A stretch of DNA of 64,000 nt, taken from Deltaproteobacteria bacterium. GTDB taxonomy: Bacteria; Desulfobacterota; Syntrophia; Syntrophales; UBA2192. Position numbers and translations under genes: made by a program. Positions 49,113 through 57,071 of the stretch are shown one piece after another; within the stretch, counting starts at the first letter, position 1, and each line of letters opens with the position of its first letter. Where the stretch lies: the NCBI GenBank assembly GCA_012728915.1, contig JAAYEC010000034.1, forward strand, positions 5,895-69,894, given 5' to 3'. The notes beneath the pieces are model-generated. The model ran no database searches. It saw only the letters and a program-made list of their open reading frames with translations, and had not been told where the DNA came from.

Positions 49113-51002
49113 ATGGCCAGGTGGAACAAGGAAAAGAGGGTCCTCGATCACGAACACACCAAATTCTGGCGCTACGAGATGAAGGACGTCGATCAGCCGA
49201 ATCTCCAGAAGGACGTCTTCCCCTACGACGAGGTCTGCCGGATCGTGTTCGACCACAAGATCGTCTCGATGAGTCCCGCCGAGGACATTTTCATCACCGA
49301 CACGACCTTCCGGGACGGCCAGCAGGCCCGCCCGCCCTACACGGTCAAGCAGATCGCCGATCTGTACAGCATGATGAGCCGCCTGGGCGGCGAAAGGGGC
49401 GTCATCCGCCAGACGGAGTTTTTCCTCTACAGCCAGCGCGACCGCGAGGCGCTGGAGGCCTGCCGCGGCATGAACCTCCGCTACCCGGAGATCACGGGCT
49501 GGATCCGGGCCGTGAAGGAGGACGTGCCGCTGGTCAGGGAAGCGGGCCTCAGGGAGACGGGCGTCCTCACCTCCGTGTCGGACTACCACATCTTCCTCAA
49601 GCTCGGCGTGACGAGAAAGCAGGCCATGGAGATGTACCTCGACGTGGTGCGATCCCTCCTGGAGGCGGGGGTTGTCGCCCGCTGCCACTTCGAGGATCTC
49701 ACGCGCTCGGACATCTACGGGTTCGTGGTTCCCTTCGCCATCGAGCTGATGAAGCTGCGCGAGCAGAGCGGCGTCGATGTCAAGATCCGGCTCTGCGATA
49801 CCATGGGCTACGGGGTGACCTACCCCGGCGCGGCCCTGCCCCGAAGCGTGGACAAGATCGTGCGGGCCTTCATCGAGGACGCCGGCGTCCCCGGGCACCT
49901 GCTCGAGTGGCATGGACACAACGACTTCCACAAGGCCCTGATCAACGCCACGACGGCCTGGCTGTACGGCTGCAGCGGCGCCAACGGCACCCTGATGGGC
50001 ATCGGAGAGCGCACGGGCAACCCGCCCGTCGAGGCCCTTATCTTCGAGTACATCCAGTTGCACGGCGAAAACCGCGGGATCGACACCACGGTGATCACGG
50101 AGATCGCCGACTATGTCCGACGGGAGATGAACTTCAAGATCGCGCCCAACTACCCCTTCGTGGGCTCCGAGTTCAACGTCACCCGGGCGGGCGTCCACCT
50201 CGACGGCCTCGTGAAAAATGAGGAGATCTACAACATCTTCGACACGGCGAGGATCCTCAAGCGTCCCATCATGCTCGAGATCACCGACAAGTCGGGCAAG
50301 GCAGGGATCGTCCACTGGATCAACTCGCGGCTCGACCTCAAGAACGGCGAGGCGATCGACAAGCGCCACCCGGGCATCTCCGCGATCCACAAGTGGGTCA
50401 TGAAGCAGTACGAGGGCGGGCGCATGACGAGCATCTCCAACGACGAGATGGAGAAGGTCGTGCGGAAGTTCCTCCCCGAGCAGTTCATGTCCGATCTCGA
50501 GAAGATCAAGTACCGCGCCGCCCAGGCGGCCGTGGCGGTCGTCCGACAGGTGATCGAGCACCCCGTCATGAAGGCGATGAACCCCGAGATGCAGGAGCCG
50601 ATCATGCAGCAGTTCATCGACGAGAACCCCTCGATCCAGTTCGCCTACGTGGTCGACACGCACGGCAGGAAGATCACGCGCAATATCACGCACATCACGG
50701 ACCGGGCCAAGTACGAGAATTTCGGCGTCGGAACCGACTACTCGAACCGCGAGTGGTTCATCCGGCCCATGGAAACCGGCAAGATCCACGTGACGGATTT
50801 CTACATCTCCAAGATGACGGGCGCGCTCTGCATCACCGTTTCCGCGCCCATCGTCGACGAGCACGACGAGATCCGCGGCGTCTTCGGCGTCGACATCCGG
50901 TTCGAGGAGTGGACCAAGAGCGTGGACCTGATCTCCGAGGCCACCGAGCGGGCCCTGAAGGCAGAGTACGAGGCCAAAAAGAAGTCGGACCACTGGTTCT
51001 GA
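49113..51002 (+). CDS. HMGL-family synthase (Re-citrate synthase / homocitrate synthase / isopropylmalate synthase-like) with a C-terminal Cache/PAS-like domain
   Basis: DTTFRDGQQ and HGHNDFHKALINA ... GIGERTGN catalytic TIM-barrel motifs. The last 180 aa or so show a Cache-like signature (SNREWFIRPMETGKIHVTDFYISKMTGALCITVSAPIVDEHDEIRGVFGVDI). Confidence 0.8.
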   Translation: MARWNKEKRVLDHEHTKFWRYEMKDVDQPNLQKDVFPYDEVCRIVFDHKIVSMSPAEDIFITDTTFRDGQQARPPYTVKQIADLYSMMSRLGGERGVIRQTEFFLYSQRDREALEACRGMNLRYPEITGWIRAVKEDVPLVREAGLRETGVLTSVSDYHIFLKLGVTRKQAMEMYLDVVRSLLEAGVVARCHFEDLTRSDIYGFVVPFAIELMKLREQSGVDVKIRLCDTMGYGVTYPGAALPRSVDKIVRAFIEDAGVPGHLLEWHGHNDFHKALINATTAWLYGCSGANGTLMGIGERTGNPPVEALIFEYIQLHGENRGIDTTVITEIADYVRREMNFKIAPNYPFVGSEFNVTRAGVHLDGLVKNEEIYNIFDTARILKRPIMLEITDKSGKAGIVHWINSRLDLKNGEAIDKRHPGISAIHKWVMKQYEGGRMTSISNDEMEKVVRKFLPEQFMSDLEKIKYRAAQAAVAVVRQVIEHPVMKAMNPEMQEPIMQQFIDENPSIQFAYVVDTHGRKITRNITHITDRAKYENFGVGTDYSNREWFIRPMETGKIHVTDFYISKMTGALCITVSAPIVDEHDEIRGVFGVDIRFEEWTKSVDLISEATERALKAEYEAKKKSDHWF

Positions 51003-55181: not shown

Positions 55182-57071
55182 ATGACGGACACCACGCAGC
55201 TCCTCGACCTCTGGAAGCAGCGGCATCCCCGGAAATTCGCGGCGGAGAAGGAGATCTTCAGGCACATCAACCGGGGCGACACGATCTTCATCTCGTCGGC
55301 CTGCGCCGAGCCCCAGCACCTCGTCCACGCGCTGATCCGATACGTCAAGGAAAACCCCAAGGCCTTCTTCGACGCCGAGGTGCTTCACATTCGCACCCTC
55401 GGCGTGGCCCCCTATGCCGACGAGAAGTTCAAGTCCAATTTCCGGCACAACTCCTTCTTCATCGGCGACAGCACCCGCGGGGCGGTCAACAGGGGGATGG
55501 CCGACTATACGCCGGTCAACCTCTCCCAGGTGCCCGGCTTGTTCCGCCGGGGCCTCGAGCACGTCGACGTGGCGCTTCTCCAGGCCTCCCCGCCCGACGA
55601 GCACGGCTACCTGAGCGTGGGCGTCAGCGTCGACATCGTGAAGGCCGCCGCCGAAACGGCCCGTGTGGTCGTCACGCAGGTCAACCGCTGCATGCCGCGG
55701 GTCCACGGAGACACCTTTCTCCACATCGACGACATCGACTTCCTCGTCCCCTACGACGAGCCGCTCCTCGAGTATTTCCCGGCGGCCGACACGGAAATCG
55801 CCCAGCGGATCGGCAACTACGTGGCCCGGCTGATCGAGGACGGCGACACGATCCAGGTCGGCTACGGTACGATTCCCAACGCCGTCCTCTCGAACCTACA
55901 GGGCAAGAAACACCTGGGCATCCACACGGAGCTCATCAGCGACGGCATCGTTGAGCTGATGAAACGGGGAGTCGTCGACAACTCCCGCAAAACCGTCAAC
56001 CGGGGAAAGACCGTGGCCACGTTCTGCATGGGCAGGCGGTCGACCTACGAATTTCTCCACGACAACCCCTCCATCGACTTCCGGTCCATCGACTACACGA
56101 ACAACCCCCTGCTCATCGCCCGGCAGGACAACATGGTCGCCATCAACAGCGCGCTGGAGATCGACCTCACGGGACAGGCGACGGCCGAATCGATCGGAAA
56201 GACCTTCTACAGCGGCGTGGGCGGACAGGCGGATTTCATGCGGGGGGCGGCCCTGGCCCGCAACGGCAAGACGATCCTCGCGATCCAGTCCACGGCGGCA
56301 TGCGACGTGGTCTCGCGCATCGTCCCGTTCCTCAAGGAGGGGTCCGGGGCGACGTTACTGAGGGGGGATGTCCAGTATGTCGTCACCGAGTGGGGGATCG
56401 CCTACCTGCCGGGCAAGAACGTCCGCGAGCGGGCCATGGAACTGATCGCCATCGCCCACCCGAAGTTCAGGCCCTGGCTCATCGAGGAGGCCCGTAAGAA
56501 CGGGCTCATCTACCGGGACCAGGCCTTCATCCCCGGCGAGCGCGGCATCTACCCCGAGGAGCTCGAGACCTACCGCACCACGAGAGCCGGCATCAACCTC
56601 CTCTTCCGGCCCGTGAAGATCAGCGACGAGCACCGGCTCCAGGACTTTTTCTATTCCCTTTCGGACAGCAGCCTGTACCGGCGGTTCATCTCCTATCGCA
56701 AGGACATGCCCCACGAGCGGCTCCAGGATTTTGTCGTCATCGACTACACGAAGAAGATGGAGATCCTGGCCGTCCTCGGCGAGGAGGACAACGAGGAGAT
56801 CGTCGGCCTCGGCCAGTACGAGATCGAAGAGGACACCCACATGGCCGAGGTCGCCTTCGCCGTCAGCGATGCGCACCAGAGCAAAGGGATTGGTCAGGAA
56901 CTCCTCGGATATCTCACCTACCTGGCGAGACGGCAGGGGTTGCTCGGCTTCACCGCGGAGGTCCTGCTCGAGAATCGGCCCATGCTGCACGTATTCGAAA
57001 AGATGGGATTCGACATGGAAAAGCGGGTCGGGGCCGGGGTGTACGAGCTGAAGATGATGTTCCGGGAGTAG
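55182..57071 (+). CDS. acetyl-CoA hydrolase/CoA-transferase family domain fused to a Pat-type GNAT acetyltransferase domain
   Basis: N-terminal 430 aa or so carry SALEIDLTGQ and GVGGQADFMRGA (4-hydroxybutyrate CoA-transferase family). The C-terminal 190 aa or so carry GNAT motif A (QSKGIGQELL) in a Pat-like context (LYRRFISYRKDMPHERLQDF). Confidence 0.85.
   Translation: MTDTTQLLDLWKQRHPRKFAAEKEIFRHINRGDTIFISSACAEPQHLVHALIRYVKENPKAFFDAEVLHIRTLGVAPYADEKFKSNFRHNSFFIGDSTRGAVNRGMADYTPVNLSQVPGLFRRGLEHVDVALLQASPPDEHGYLSVGVSVDIVKAAAETARVVVTQVNRCMPRVHGDTFLHIDDIDFLVPYDEPLLEYFPAADTEIAQRIGNYVARLIEDGDTIQVGYGTIPNAVLSNLQGKKHLGIHTELISDGIVELMKRGVVDNSRKTVNRGKTVATFCMGRRSTYEFLHDNPSIDFRSIDYTNNPLLIARQDNMVAINSALEIDLTGQATAESIGKTFYSGVGGQADFMRGAALARNGKTILAIQSTAACDVVSRIVPFLKEGSGATLLRGDVQYVVTEWGIAYLPGKNVRERAMELIAIAHPKFRPWLIEEARKNGLIYRDQAFIPGERGIYPEELETYRTTRAGINLLFRPVKISDEHRLQDFFYSLSDSSLYRRFISYRKDMPHERLQDFVVIDYTKKMEILAVLGEEDNEEIVGLGQYEIEEDTHMAEVAFAVSDAHQSKGIGQELLGYLTYLARRQGLLGFTAEVLLENRPMLHVFEKMGFDMEKRVGAGVYELKMMFRE

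What the first reader, a model, noticed from the sequence alone, without database searches (positions are those of the whole stretch)
49113..51002. HMGL-family (Re-citrate/homocitrate synthase-like) catalytic domain fused to a cytoplasmic Cache/PAS-like domain
The first 440 aa or so carry the aldolase-type TIM-barrel motifs of the isopropylmalate/homocitrate/Re-citrate synthase family (DTTFRDGQQ; HGHNDFH...GIGERTGN). Members of this family that are feedback-regulated usually end in a LeuA-dimer-type regulatory domain. Here the C-terminal 180 aa or so instead look like a single Cache/PDC module: FAYVVDTHGRKITRN ... SNREWFIRPMETGKIHVTDFYISKMTGALCITVSAPIVDEHDEIRGVFGVDIRF. That module is normally an extracytoplasmic ligand sensor of chemoreceptors and kinases. 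There is no TM segment, so this would be an intracellular small-molecule sensor attached directly to a central-carbon condensing enzyme. It suggests allosteric control by an unknown ligand.
Basis: partly seen in the sequence, partly recalled or inferred. Interest (0 to 1): 0.6.

Follow-up and report, generated by a model that had tools for sequence, protein, structure and literature searches.

The report
Re-citrate synthase with cytoplasmic Cache tail
This gene encodes the anaerobe-type (Re-face) citrate synthase, 71% identical to the enzyme already characterised in Syntrophus aciditrophicus, and like that enzyme it ends in a soluble chemoreceptor-type Cache domain whose role is untested.

Summary
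Window 49113-51002 (+) encodes a 629-aa soluble protein. It has an HMGL/DRE-TIM condensing domain (residues 60-335), a helical subdomain, and a single Cache/PDC module (about 456-600). No LeuA_dimer domain and no membrane segment were found.

It is not a new enzyme. It aligns over all 629 residues, with no gaps and 71% identity, to the S. aciditrophicus Re-citrate synthase SYN_02536, which has the same tail. At least 593 species genomes hold relatives of this enzyme, and the best 80 loci all carry the tail. The genome has no Si-citrate synthase but has an aconitase/isocitrate dehydrogenase pair, so this is probably its only citrate synthase.

Clostridial Re-citrate synthases, including the characterised C. 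kluyveri enzyme, end just before the tail. The tail is therefore an accessory module, not needed for catalysis.

Its ligand-contact positions (R546, W548, F549, S566, D594) are invariant or nearly so. Its nearest relatives outside this enzyme family are cytoplasmic Cache domains that follow the signalling domain of chemoreceptors and carry the same residues. An allosteric metabolite sensor is the best reading, but it is inferred, and the ligand is unknown.

This scan has flagged the same architecture on other genomes, and one earlier follow-up reached the same verdict.

The parts
49113..51002 (+). Re-citrate synthase gene (629 codons plus stop)
   Evidence: Open frame. It is 71% identical with no gaps over 629 aa to the S. 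aciditrophicus SYN_02536 ortholog. The 120 best database homologues listed are 627-651 aa, almost all 629, and have the same Pfam combination.
49113..49289 (+). N-terminal extension (residues 1-59) typical of this Re-citrate synthase clade
   Evidence: Conserved between the window protein and SYN_02536. A 50-aa N-terminal query finds it in 150 of 201 genomes sampled from the order.
49290..50117 (+). HMGL / DRE-TIM catalytic barrel (residues 60-335)
   Evidence: Pfam PF00682, E 1e-28. Foldseek of the full model matches homocitrate, isopropylmalate and citramalate synthase catalytic domains, E down to 2e-24. Residues R67, D68, H267, H269 and N303 are invariant in 42 homologues.
50118..50477 (+). 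Post-barrel helical subdomain (residues 336-455); clostridial Re-citrate synthases end near its C-terminal edge
   Evidence: Helices in the AF2 model. A weak HCS_D2 match at 358-381. The C. kluyveri, C. acetobutylicum and C. thermocellum sequences in Table S1 of PMC12016533 stop at the equivalent point.
50478..50912 (+). Cytoplasmic single Cache/PDC module (residues 456-600): N-terminal helices 461-504 and a beta core 508-596
   Evidence: PF22673 above its cut-off. Tail model pLDDT 86.5. Foldseek matches KinD, Tlp3, YkuI_C, Mlp24/37 and DcuS. A profile of the tail hits Tlp3, KinD and PctA chains in the PDB.
50748..50759 (+). R546-E-W548-F549, aligned with the carboxylate-binding R126-x-W128-Y129 of PctA
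   Evidence: HMM alignment to PctA chains. The motif definition is from PMC8915833. W548 and F549 are invariant and R546 is present in 38 of 42 homologues.
50808..50810 (+). S566, invariant; it aligns with D146 of PctA and with a Ser of KinD
50892..50894 (+). D594, invariant; it aligns with D173 of PctA, the amino-group contact of the amino-acid motif
   Evidence: KinD, which binds pyruvate, has Ala at this position.
50913..50999 (+). C-terminal charged helix (residues 601-629), low model confidence, present only in the closer (Syntrophales-type) relatives
   Evidence: pLDDT under 50 for residues 608-629. Most more distant homologues end soon after the Cache core, many in short acidic tails.

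Best explanation
Shown: the gene encodes the Re-face citrate synthase (EC 2.3.3.3, KEGG K05942) of a Syntrophales bacterium. It is an ortholog of the characterised S. aciditrophicus enzyme. No Si-citrate synthase was found in this genome, so it is probably the only citrate synthase. Inferred from gene content: it condenses acetyl-CoA with oxaloacetate in a DRE-TIM barrel and feeds an aconitase/isocitrate dehydrogenase pair that leads to 2-oxoglutarate and glutamate. Shown: the last 175 residues or so form a soluble, single-module Cache/PDC domain. Inferred: this tail is an accessory regulatory module that binds a small cytoplasmic metabolite in the canonical Cache pocket and changes enzyme activity allosterically. 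That would play the role that the LeuA_dimer domain plays in isopropylmalate and citramalate synthases and the C-terminal RAM domain may play in Sulfolobus homocitrate synthase. The pocket keeps the Arg/Trp pair that holds a carboxylate and the Asp that holds an amino group in amino-acid-sensing Cache domains. The most likely ligand class is therefore an amino acid or a related carboxylate. L-glutamate or another product of the pathway is the most economical guess, but nothing tested here supports it specifically.
For: Enzyme identity: 71% identity over 629 aa with no gaps to the gene in a single-contig genome of 3,179,300 bp. That gene matches the SYN_02536 sequence printed in Table S1 of PMC12016533. 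JGI names homologues 'citrate (Re)-synthase'. All LeuA, NifV and CimA NCBIfam models score far below their cut-offs, for example 127 bits against 463.

Pathway context: Pfam Citrate_synt finds nothing in the window's own genome, which is scored 100% complete. That genome has a separate leuA-leuC-leuB cluster, and an aconitase next to an isocitrate dehydrogenase. In a 201-genome sample of the order, the two enzymes are largely complementary by family. Family f1 has Re-CS in 18/19 and Si-CS in 0/19; f21 has 7/7 and 0/7; f5 has 0/8 and 8/8; f6 has 1/10 and 9/10.

Tail fold.

Tail is accessory: the C. kluyveri enzyme, treated as a known, isolated Re-citrate synthase in PMC12016533, and two putative clostridial ones end before the tail.

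Tail as sensor: W548, F549, S566, L572 and D594 are invariant, and R546, T569 and T575 nearly so, across 42 homologues down to 50% identity, while the tail as a whole averages 45% column identity. These positions align with ligand contacts of PctA, Tlp3 and KinD. The closest relatives outside this enzyme family are Cache domains placed after the MCPsignal domain of chemoreceptors, with no membrane segment between the two, so they are cytoplasmic. They carry the same signature, [WFY]-S-x-R-x-W-F ... Y-x-S ... T ... D.

Spread: at least 593 species genomes hold relatives of the enzyme, and the best 80 loci all carry the tail.
Against: No ligand, kinetic or mutational data exist for the tail. I found no paper in the searchable library that mentions it. 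The original enzymology papers could not be read, so any reported effectors are unknown to me. The amino-acid motif is incomplete. PctA Y121 aligns with a variable residue (T541). Y129 is Phe. Y144 is only mostly aromatic (Y in 31 and F in 6 of 42). D146 is an invariant Ser. Some of the conserved residues belong to the general Cache consensus and could be kept for folding alone. Tail-less clostridial enzymes work, so regulation through the tail cannot be essential to the enzyme class. I had no model coordinates, so pocket geometry and the contact between the two domains were not inspected.
Confidence: 0.55

Rival explanations
1. The Cache tail is a structural or oligomerisation module, for example a brace for the dimer, and binds no ligand. 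Its conserved residues are kept for folding.
For: Tail-less clostridial Re-citrate synthases are active. Several conserved positions are part of the general dCache_1/PDC consensus. I know of no reported effector of these enzymes. Cache sensor domains of receptors commonly dimerise through their long N-terminal helix (general knowledge), and this tail has such helices at 461-504.
Against: The invariant residues cluster at positions that contact ligand in solved Cache domains, not across the whole core. The same signature is kept in C-terminal cytoplasmic Cache domains of chemoreceptors, where sensing is the only obvious role. KinD, which binds a ligand without an amino group, has lost the Asp that is invariant here.
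Confidence: 0.25
2. The tail is a sensor, but its ligand is a plain carboxylate without an amino group, such as pyruvate, acetate, oxaloacetate, citrate or 2-oxoglutarate, or some unrelated metabolite.
For: The best structural match is the pyruvate-binding KinD sensor. KinD shares the Y-x-S-[KR]-x-T-G stretch and the Arg with the tail. The first Tyr of the amino-acid motif is missing, and D146 is replaced by an invariant Ser.
Against: D594 is invariant. Its counterpart in PctA (D173) is the amino-group contact whose D173A change abolished binding and whose D173N change gave a loss of function. KinD has Ala there. The Arg/Trp pair matches the amino-acid motif.
Confidence: 0.15
3. The enzyme is not a citrate synthase but another 2-oxoacid condensing enzyme (homocitrate, citramalate or isopropylmalate synthase) with an unusual tail.
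For: The best NCBIfam and PDB sequence matches are to NifV, LeuA, CimA and homocitrate synthases.
Against: Those matches are far below the family cut-offs. The protein is 71% identical over its full length to the enzyme treated as a known, isolated Re-citrate synthase. A separate leuA lies in a leu cluster. No Si-citrate synthase was found in the genome.
Confidence: 0.05

Closest known systems
Re-citrate synthase SYN_02536 of Syntrophus aciditrophicus (Kim et al. 2013, J Bacteriol 195:1689, as cited and printed in PMC12016533)
   Same: 629 aa, 71% identity with no gaps. It has the same N-terminal extension, HMGL barrel, helical subdomain, Cache tail and charged C-terminal helix.
   Different: Only the species and ordinary sequence divergence. 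In the papers I could search, the tail of SYN_02536 is not discussed either.
Re-citrate synthase CKL_0973 of Clostridium kluyveri (Li et al. 2007) and the putative clostridial enzymes CAC0970 and the C. thermocellum protein
   Same: Same catalytic clade. They are 49-60% identical to SYN_02536 according to Fig. S1 of PMC12016533, with the same N-terminal extension and motifs.
   Different: They end at about 450-460 aa, just where the Cache tail begins here. They are natural tail-less forms.
LeuA/CimA with the LeuA_dimer regulatory domain, and Sulfolobus acidocaldarius homocitrate synthase, which has a C-terminal RAM domain
   Same: A DRE-TIM Claisen-condensing enzyme with a C-terminal add-on domain. 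That domain is the feedback sensor in LeuA and CimA (general knowledge). The existence of a RAM domain in the Sulfolobus enzyme is read from the title of PDB entry 6ktq, and its regulatory role is my recollection. The catalytic folds match.
   Different: The add-on here has a different fold (Cache/PDC). There is no LeuA_dimer match.
Amino-acid-sensing dCache_1AA domains (PctA, Tlp3, Mlp24/37; Gumerov et al. 2022, PMC8915833)
   Same: Same fold family. R126, W128 and D173 equivalents are conserved as R546, W548 and D594.
   Different: This tail is a single module, cytoplasmic, and attached to an enzyme rather than a transducer. Y121 is not conserved, Y129 is Phe, and D146 is Ser.
KinD sensor domain of Bacillus subtilis (4jgo/4jgp, pyruvate-bound)
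   Same: Best structural match (E 8e-9). It shares the Arg and the Y-x-S-[KR]-x-T-G stretch.
   Different: It is an extracytoplasmic double module of a histidine kinase. It has Phe for W548 and Ala for D594.
Uncharacterised C-terminal Cache domains of chemoreceptors (after MCPsignal), and YkuI_C
   Same: The chemoreceptor domains are the nearest sequence relatives of the tail outside the enzyme family, at roughly 28-38% identity with the same pocket signature, and they are cytoplasmic. YkuI_C is one of two Cache families described as principally intracellular (PMC4822843).
   Different: They are attached to signalling outputs (MCP or EAL), not to a metabolic enzyme.

Membership tests
Re-citrate synthase, C. 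kluyveri / S. aciditrophicus type (EC 2.3.3.3, K05942) | DRE-TIM/HMGL catalytic domain with the metal and substrate motifs (RDGxQ; HxH; GERxGN) | tested here: met
   Pfam HMGL-like, E 1e-28. The motifs are invariant in 42 homologues. The fold matches homocitrate and isopropylmalate synthases.
Re-citrate synthase, C. kluyveri / S. aciditrophicus type (EC 2.3.3.3, K05942) | Close full-length similarity to a biochemically characterised member | tested here: met
   71% identity with no gaps over 629 aa to the SYN_02536 ortholog.
Re-citrate synthase, C. kluyveri / S. aciditrophicus type (EC 2.3.3.3, K05942) | Fills the citrate synthase role: no Si-citrate synthase, downstream aconitase and isocitrate dehydrogenase present | tested here: met
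   PF00285 finds nothing in the window's own genome, scored 100% complete. An aconitase and isocitrate dehydrogenase pair lies on contig 14. Distribution across the order is largely complementary.
Re-citrate synthase, C. kluyveri / S. aciditrophicus type (EC 2.3.3.3, K05942) | Re-face stereospecificity, dependence on Mn2+/Co2+, oxygen sensitivity | not testable with these tools
   Needs an enzyme assay with labelled substrates.
Cache superfamily (PDC fold) | A profile match and a PAS-like beta core preceded by a long N-terminal helix | tested here: met
   PF22673 at 57 bits against a cut-off of 27. Helices 461-504 and strands 508-596. Foldseek matches KinD, Tlp3, DcuS and YkuI_C.
Cache superfamily (PDC fold) | Extracytoplasmic location between two membrane helices, the usual though not universal arrangement | tested here: not met
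   No membrane-like segment in the protein. PMC4822843 reports 78% of Cache domains as confidently extracellular, with two small families principally intracellular.
dCache_1AA amino-acid sensor (AA_motif: Y121, R126, W128, Y129, Y144, D173 in PctA numbering) | All motif positions present in a double-module dCache_1 | tested here: inconclusive
   R546, W548 and D594 are conserved. Y129 is an invariant Phe. Y144 is Tyr in 31 and Phe in 6 of 42. Y121 aligns with a variable residue, although an aromatic two residues later is common. The domain is a single module.
LeuA_dimer (PF08502) regulatory domain of LeuA/CimA | Profile or fold match of the C-terminal region | tested here: not met
   No Pfam match at E<=1. 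The tail's fold matches are all Cache/PDC.

The most novel reading that the evidence does not exclude
The Cache tail is a true allosteric metabolite sensor, for example for glutamate or another amino acid or carboxylate made from citrate. That would make it a further type of feedback domain recruited by DRE-TIM condensing enzymes, and a case of a Cache domain regulating a metabolic enzyme directly rather than a signalling output. The same pocket signature sits in cytoplasmic C-terminal Cache domains of chemoreceptors, so the same intracellular metabolite might also steer chemotaxis.
Probability: 0.4. Interest if true: 0.65.

Novelty: new member of a known kind. Interest (0 to 1): 0.4.

Why it matters
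Re-citrate synthase is the entry point of the oxidative TCA branch in many strict anaerobes, including syntrophs, sulfate reducers, gut Desulfovibrio and Bilophila, and Nitrospirota. How it is regulated is, as far as I could find, unknown. A large share of these enzymes carry a conserved cytoplasmic Cache domain that the clostridial enzymes lack. If that domain binds a metabolite, it would explain how carbon flow to glutamate is controlled in these organisms. It would also extend Cache domains, usually described as extracellular sensors feeding signalling outputs, to direct allosteric control of an enzyme. The S. aciditrophicus enzyme was cloned and expressed in E. coli by Kim et al. 2013 (my recollection of the abstract; the paper could not be read here), so the question can be tested directly. 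The locus itself is an ordinary ortholog.

Tried and rejected
Literature:
- The original papers (Kim 2013, Li 2007, Marco-Urrea 2011) are not held in the library.
- Searches for SYN_02536, CKL_0973 and DVU0398 found nothing.
- So did searches pairing Re-citrate synthase or HMGL with Cache, and searches for cytoplasmic, intracellular or C-terminal Cache domains.
- The search pairing Re-citrate synthase with 'C-terminal domain' returned two unrelated papers.

Finding the characterised enzyme:
- SYN_02536 was not among the 120 listed homologues.
- I found it instead by a 50-aa N-terminal query across the order.

Domain contact:
- Complex prediction with the catalytic part (residues 20-454) against the tail gave no verdict. 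The score was 0.00 against a mark of 0.32, and the controls were not run. This counts neither for nor against contact between the domains.

Rejected readings:
- A LeuA-type regulatory domain in the tail.
- A paralogue of the gene at 55182-57071, which is also 629 aa. It reads as an acetyl-CoA hydrolase/transferase with an acetyltransferase-like C-terminus, judged by eye from the translation and not checked against Pfam.

Leader region:
- An Rfam scan of the leader found nothing.
- The simple promoter scan found no site, and the terminator scan did not report the leader hairpin. RNAfold gives that hairpin -19 kcal/mol.

Not done:
- I did not confirm the tail-less clostridial clade with a database search. 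That point rests on three sequences printed in Table S1 of PMC12016533.
Full report
**Observation.** Window 49113-51002 (+) is an open frame of 629 codons. Pfam finds HMGL-like at residues 60-335 (E 1e-28). It also finds MCP-like_PDC_1, the first PDC module of chemoreceptor sensors, at 496-599 (E 2.6e-15, above its cut-off), and dCache_1 just below its cut-off. No LeuA_dimer match appears even at E<=1. All curated LeuA, NifV and CimA models of NCBIfam score far below their cut-offs. The protein has no membrane-like segment.

**Structure.** An AlphaFold2 model built from a 42-sequence alignment (50-74% identity to the query) has mean pLDDT 87. Its N-terminal two thirds match the catalytic domains of homocitrate, isopropylmalate, methylthioalkylmalate and citramalate synthases. 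The tail modelled alone (pLDDT 86.5) matches Cache/PDC sensor domains. The best is B. subtilis KinD (E 8e-9), followed by C. jejuni Tlp3, the C-terminal domain of YkuI, Mlp24/37, PctB and DcuS.

**What the enzyme is.** The best 120 database homologues are 627-651 aa, almost all 629, and have the same Pfam combination. JGI calls some of them 'citrate (Re)-synthase', while NCBI calls many of them 'histone-lysine N-methyltransferase', which is a misnomer. Table S1 of PMC12016533 prints the sequence of SYN_02536. This is the S. aciditrophicus enzyme that the paper treats as a known, isolated Re-citrate synthase (Kim et al. 2013), and the printed sequence includes the same Cache tail.

A 50-residue N-terminal query found the gene in a single-contig genome of 3,179,300 bp. 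Its 629-aa product is 71% identical to the window protein, with no gaps. The window protein is therefore an ortholog of a characterised Re-citrate synthase.

**Pathway context.**
- The window's own genome (2.79 Mb, scored 100% complete) has no match to the Si-citrate synthase family.
- It has a separate leuA in a leu cluster, and an aconitase next to an isocitrate dehydrogenase.
- In a 201-genome sample of the order, the Re-type N-terminus and the Si-type family are largely complementary by family. Family f1 has 18/19 against 0/19, f21 has 7/7 against 0/7, f5 has 0/8 against 8/8, and f6 has 1/10 against 9/10. Some families hold both. Related genomes are not independent, so this is context and not a statistical test.
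- The neighbours are housekeeping genes: comEC, hisS and aspS upstream on the same strand, and uvrD and adk downstream on the other strand.

**The tail is accessory.** In the same Table S1, the C. kluyveri enzyme (Li et al. 2007) and the putative C. acetobutylicum and C. thermocellum enzymes all end at about 450-460 aa. That point corresponds to residue 455-465 here, where the tail begins. These enzymes are 49-60% identical to SYN_02536. Catalysis of the Re-face condensation therefore does not need the tail.

The tail-bearing form is widespread. At least 593 species genomes hold relatives, and the best 80 loci all carry the tail. They include Syntrophales, other Thermodesulfobacteriota, Desulfovibrio, Bilophila, Mailhella, Nitrospirota, Lentisphaerota, Spirochaetales, Elusimicrobia, Omnitrophota and one Odoribacter assembly.

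**What the tail probably does.** Across the 42 homologues the tail averages 45% column identity, against 61% for the whole protein. W548, F549, S566, L572 and D594 are invariant. R546, Q509, G518, T569, T575 and V576 are nearly so.

A profile of the tail aligns with PctA, Tlp3 and KinD chains. I compared that alignment with the amino-acid motif defined for dCache_1 domains in PMC8915833:

| PctA position | Role in PctA | Here |
|---|---|---|
| R126 | carboxylate contact | R546, 38 of 42 |
| W128 | carboxylate contact | W548, invariant |
| Y129 | proposed determinant of amino-acid binding | F549, invariant |
| D173 | amino-group contact; D173A abolishes binding | D594, invariant |
| Y144 | amino-group contact | Y564; Tyr in 31 and Phe in 6 of 42 |
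| Y121 | carboxylate contact | T541, variable |
| D146 | not part of the motif | S566, invariant |

KinD binds pyruvate. It shares the Arg and the Y-x-S-[KR]-x-T-G stretch with the tail, but has Ala where D594 sits. The pocket is thus conserved and carries part of the amino-acid signature, though not all of it.

A search of 1.8 billion representative proteins with the tail alone gave 454 hits. Apart from fragments and full-length Re-citrate synthases, the nearest relatives are Cache domains at the extreme C-terminus of chemoreceptors. They lie after the MCPsignal domain with no membrane segment in between, so they are cytoplasmic. Fifty-four of them carry the same signature, [W]-S-x-R-x-W-F ... 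Y-x-S ... T ... D. In a chemoreceptor such a domain has no obvious role except sensing. This is the best indirect argument that the enzyme's tail is also a ligand sensor.

Precedent exists for C-terminal feedback domains on this enzyme class. LeuA and CimA have the LeuA_dimer domain. Sulfolobus homocitrate synthase has a RAM domain, whose existence I read from the title of PDB entry 6ktq and whose regulatory role I recall from memory. By pathway logic a product such as glutamate or 2-oxoglutarate is the simplest candidate ligand. That is inference only.

**Limits.** I could not read the original enzymology papers, so I do not know whether effectors were tested. I had no model coordinates. The one complex prediction gave no verdict. 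No paper in the searchable library links Re-citrate synthase or HMGL domains with Cache. Upadhyay et al. (PMC4822843) describe Cache families as principally extracellular, with two small intracellular families, and as attached to signalling outputs.

**Novelty and score.** The gene is a new member of a known kind, an ortholog of a characterised enzyme with the same architecture. That architecture is already visible in precomputed Pfam annotations of the listed database homologues, and the search scored 8000 candidates, all with E <= 0.001. What is open is the function of the tail. This scan has flagged the same fusion on at least six other genomes. One earlier follow-up (e1-5242215) reached the same verdict, and I reproduced its main points independently on this DNA. 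Interest is moderate at 0.4. If the tail proves to be an allosteric metabolite sensor, the finding would deserve about 0.65.

Noticed in passing
window 48735-49112: The 378-nt spacer between the aspS stop codon and the synthase ATG looks like a transcription attenuator. It holds a promoter-like TTGACA-17-TATTGC (48809-48837) and a 39-codon small ORF (48861-48980). A segment GTCCCTCCAGGACAGG (from 48958) repeats the 3' arm of a strong terminator hairpin (49005-49039, followed by T6, -19 kcal/mol) and could pair with its 5' arm. These blocks, including the position of the small ORF's stop codon, are conserved in L006, whose synthase is 93% identical. A similar hairpin plus T-run lies 26-79 nt before the synthase start in L006, L007, L008, L009 and L039, but not in S. 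aciditrophicus (L092) or L010-L014. No Rfam family matches. This belongs to another first-reader finding (e1-4744342).
   Followed up: partly
window 49113-51002 and its homologues: NCBI annotation names many members of this family 'histone-lysine N-methyltransferase', and one 'triose-phosphate isomerase'. Both names are wrong for an HMGL plus Cache Re-citrate synthase.
   Followed up: no
proteins P0159, P0166, P0174, P0178, P0213, P0224 and P0238: A family of chemoreceptors carries a cytoplasmic Cache domain after the MCPsignal domain. Some have only N-terminal membrane helices and some have none. The pocket signature W-S-x-R-x-W-F ... Y-x-S ... D is conserved. I found no description of these domains in the searchable literature.
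   Followed up: partly
window 55182-57071 (+): A second 629-aa ORF, unrelated to the synthase. By eye the translation looks like an acetyl-CoA hydrolase/transferase with an acetyltransferase-like C-terminus. This was not checked against Pfam.
   Followed up: no
window 46833-48734 and loci L007, L009, L039: aspS lies directly upstream of the Re-citrate synthase in the window and in at least three relatives, where the upstream ORFs end in the same AspS C-terminal motif. The adjacency is conserved; its meaning is unknown.
   Followed up: partly
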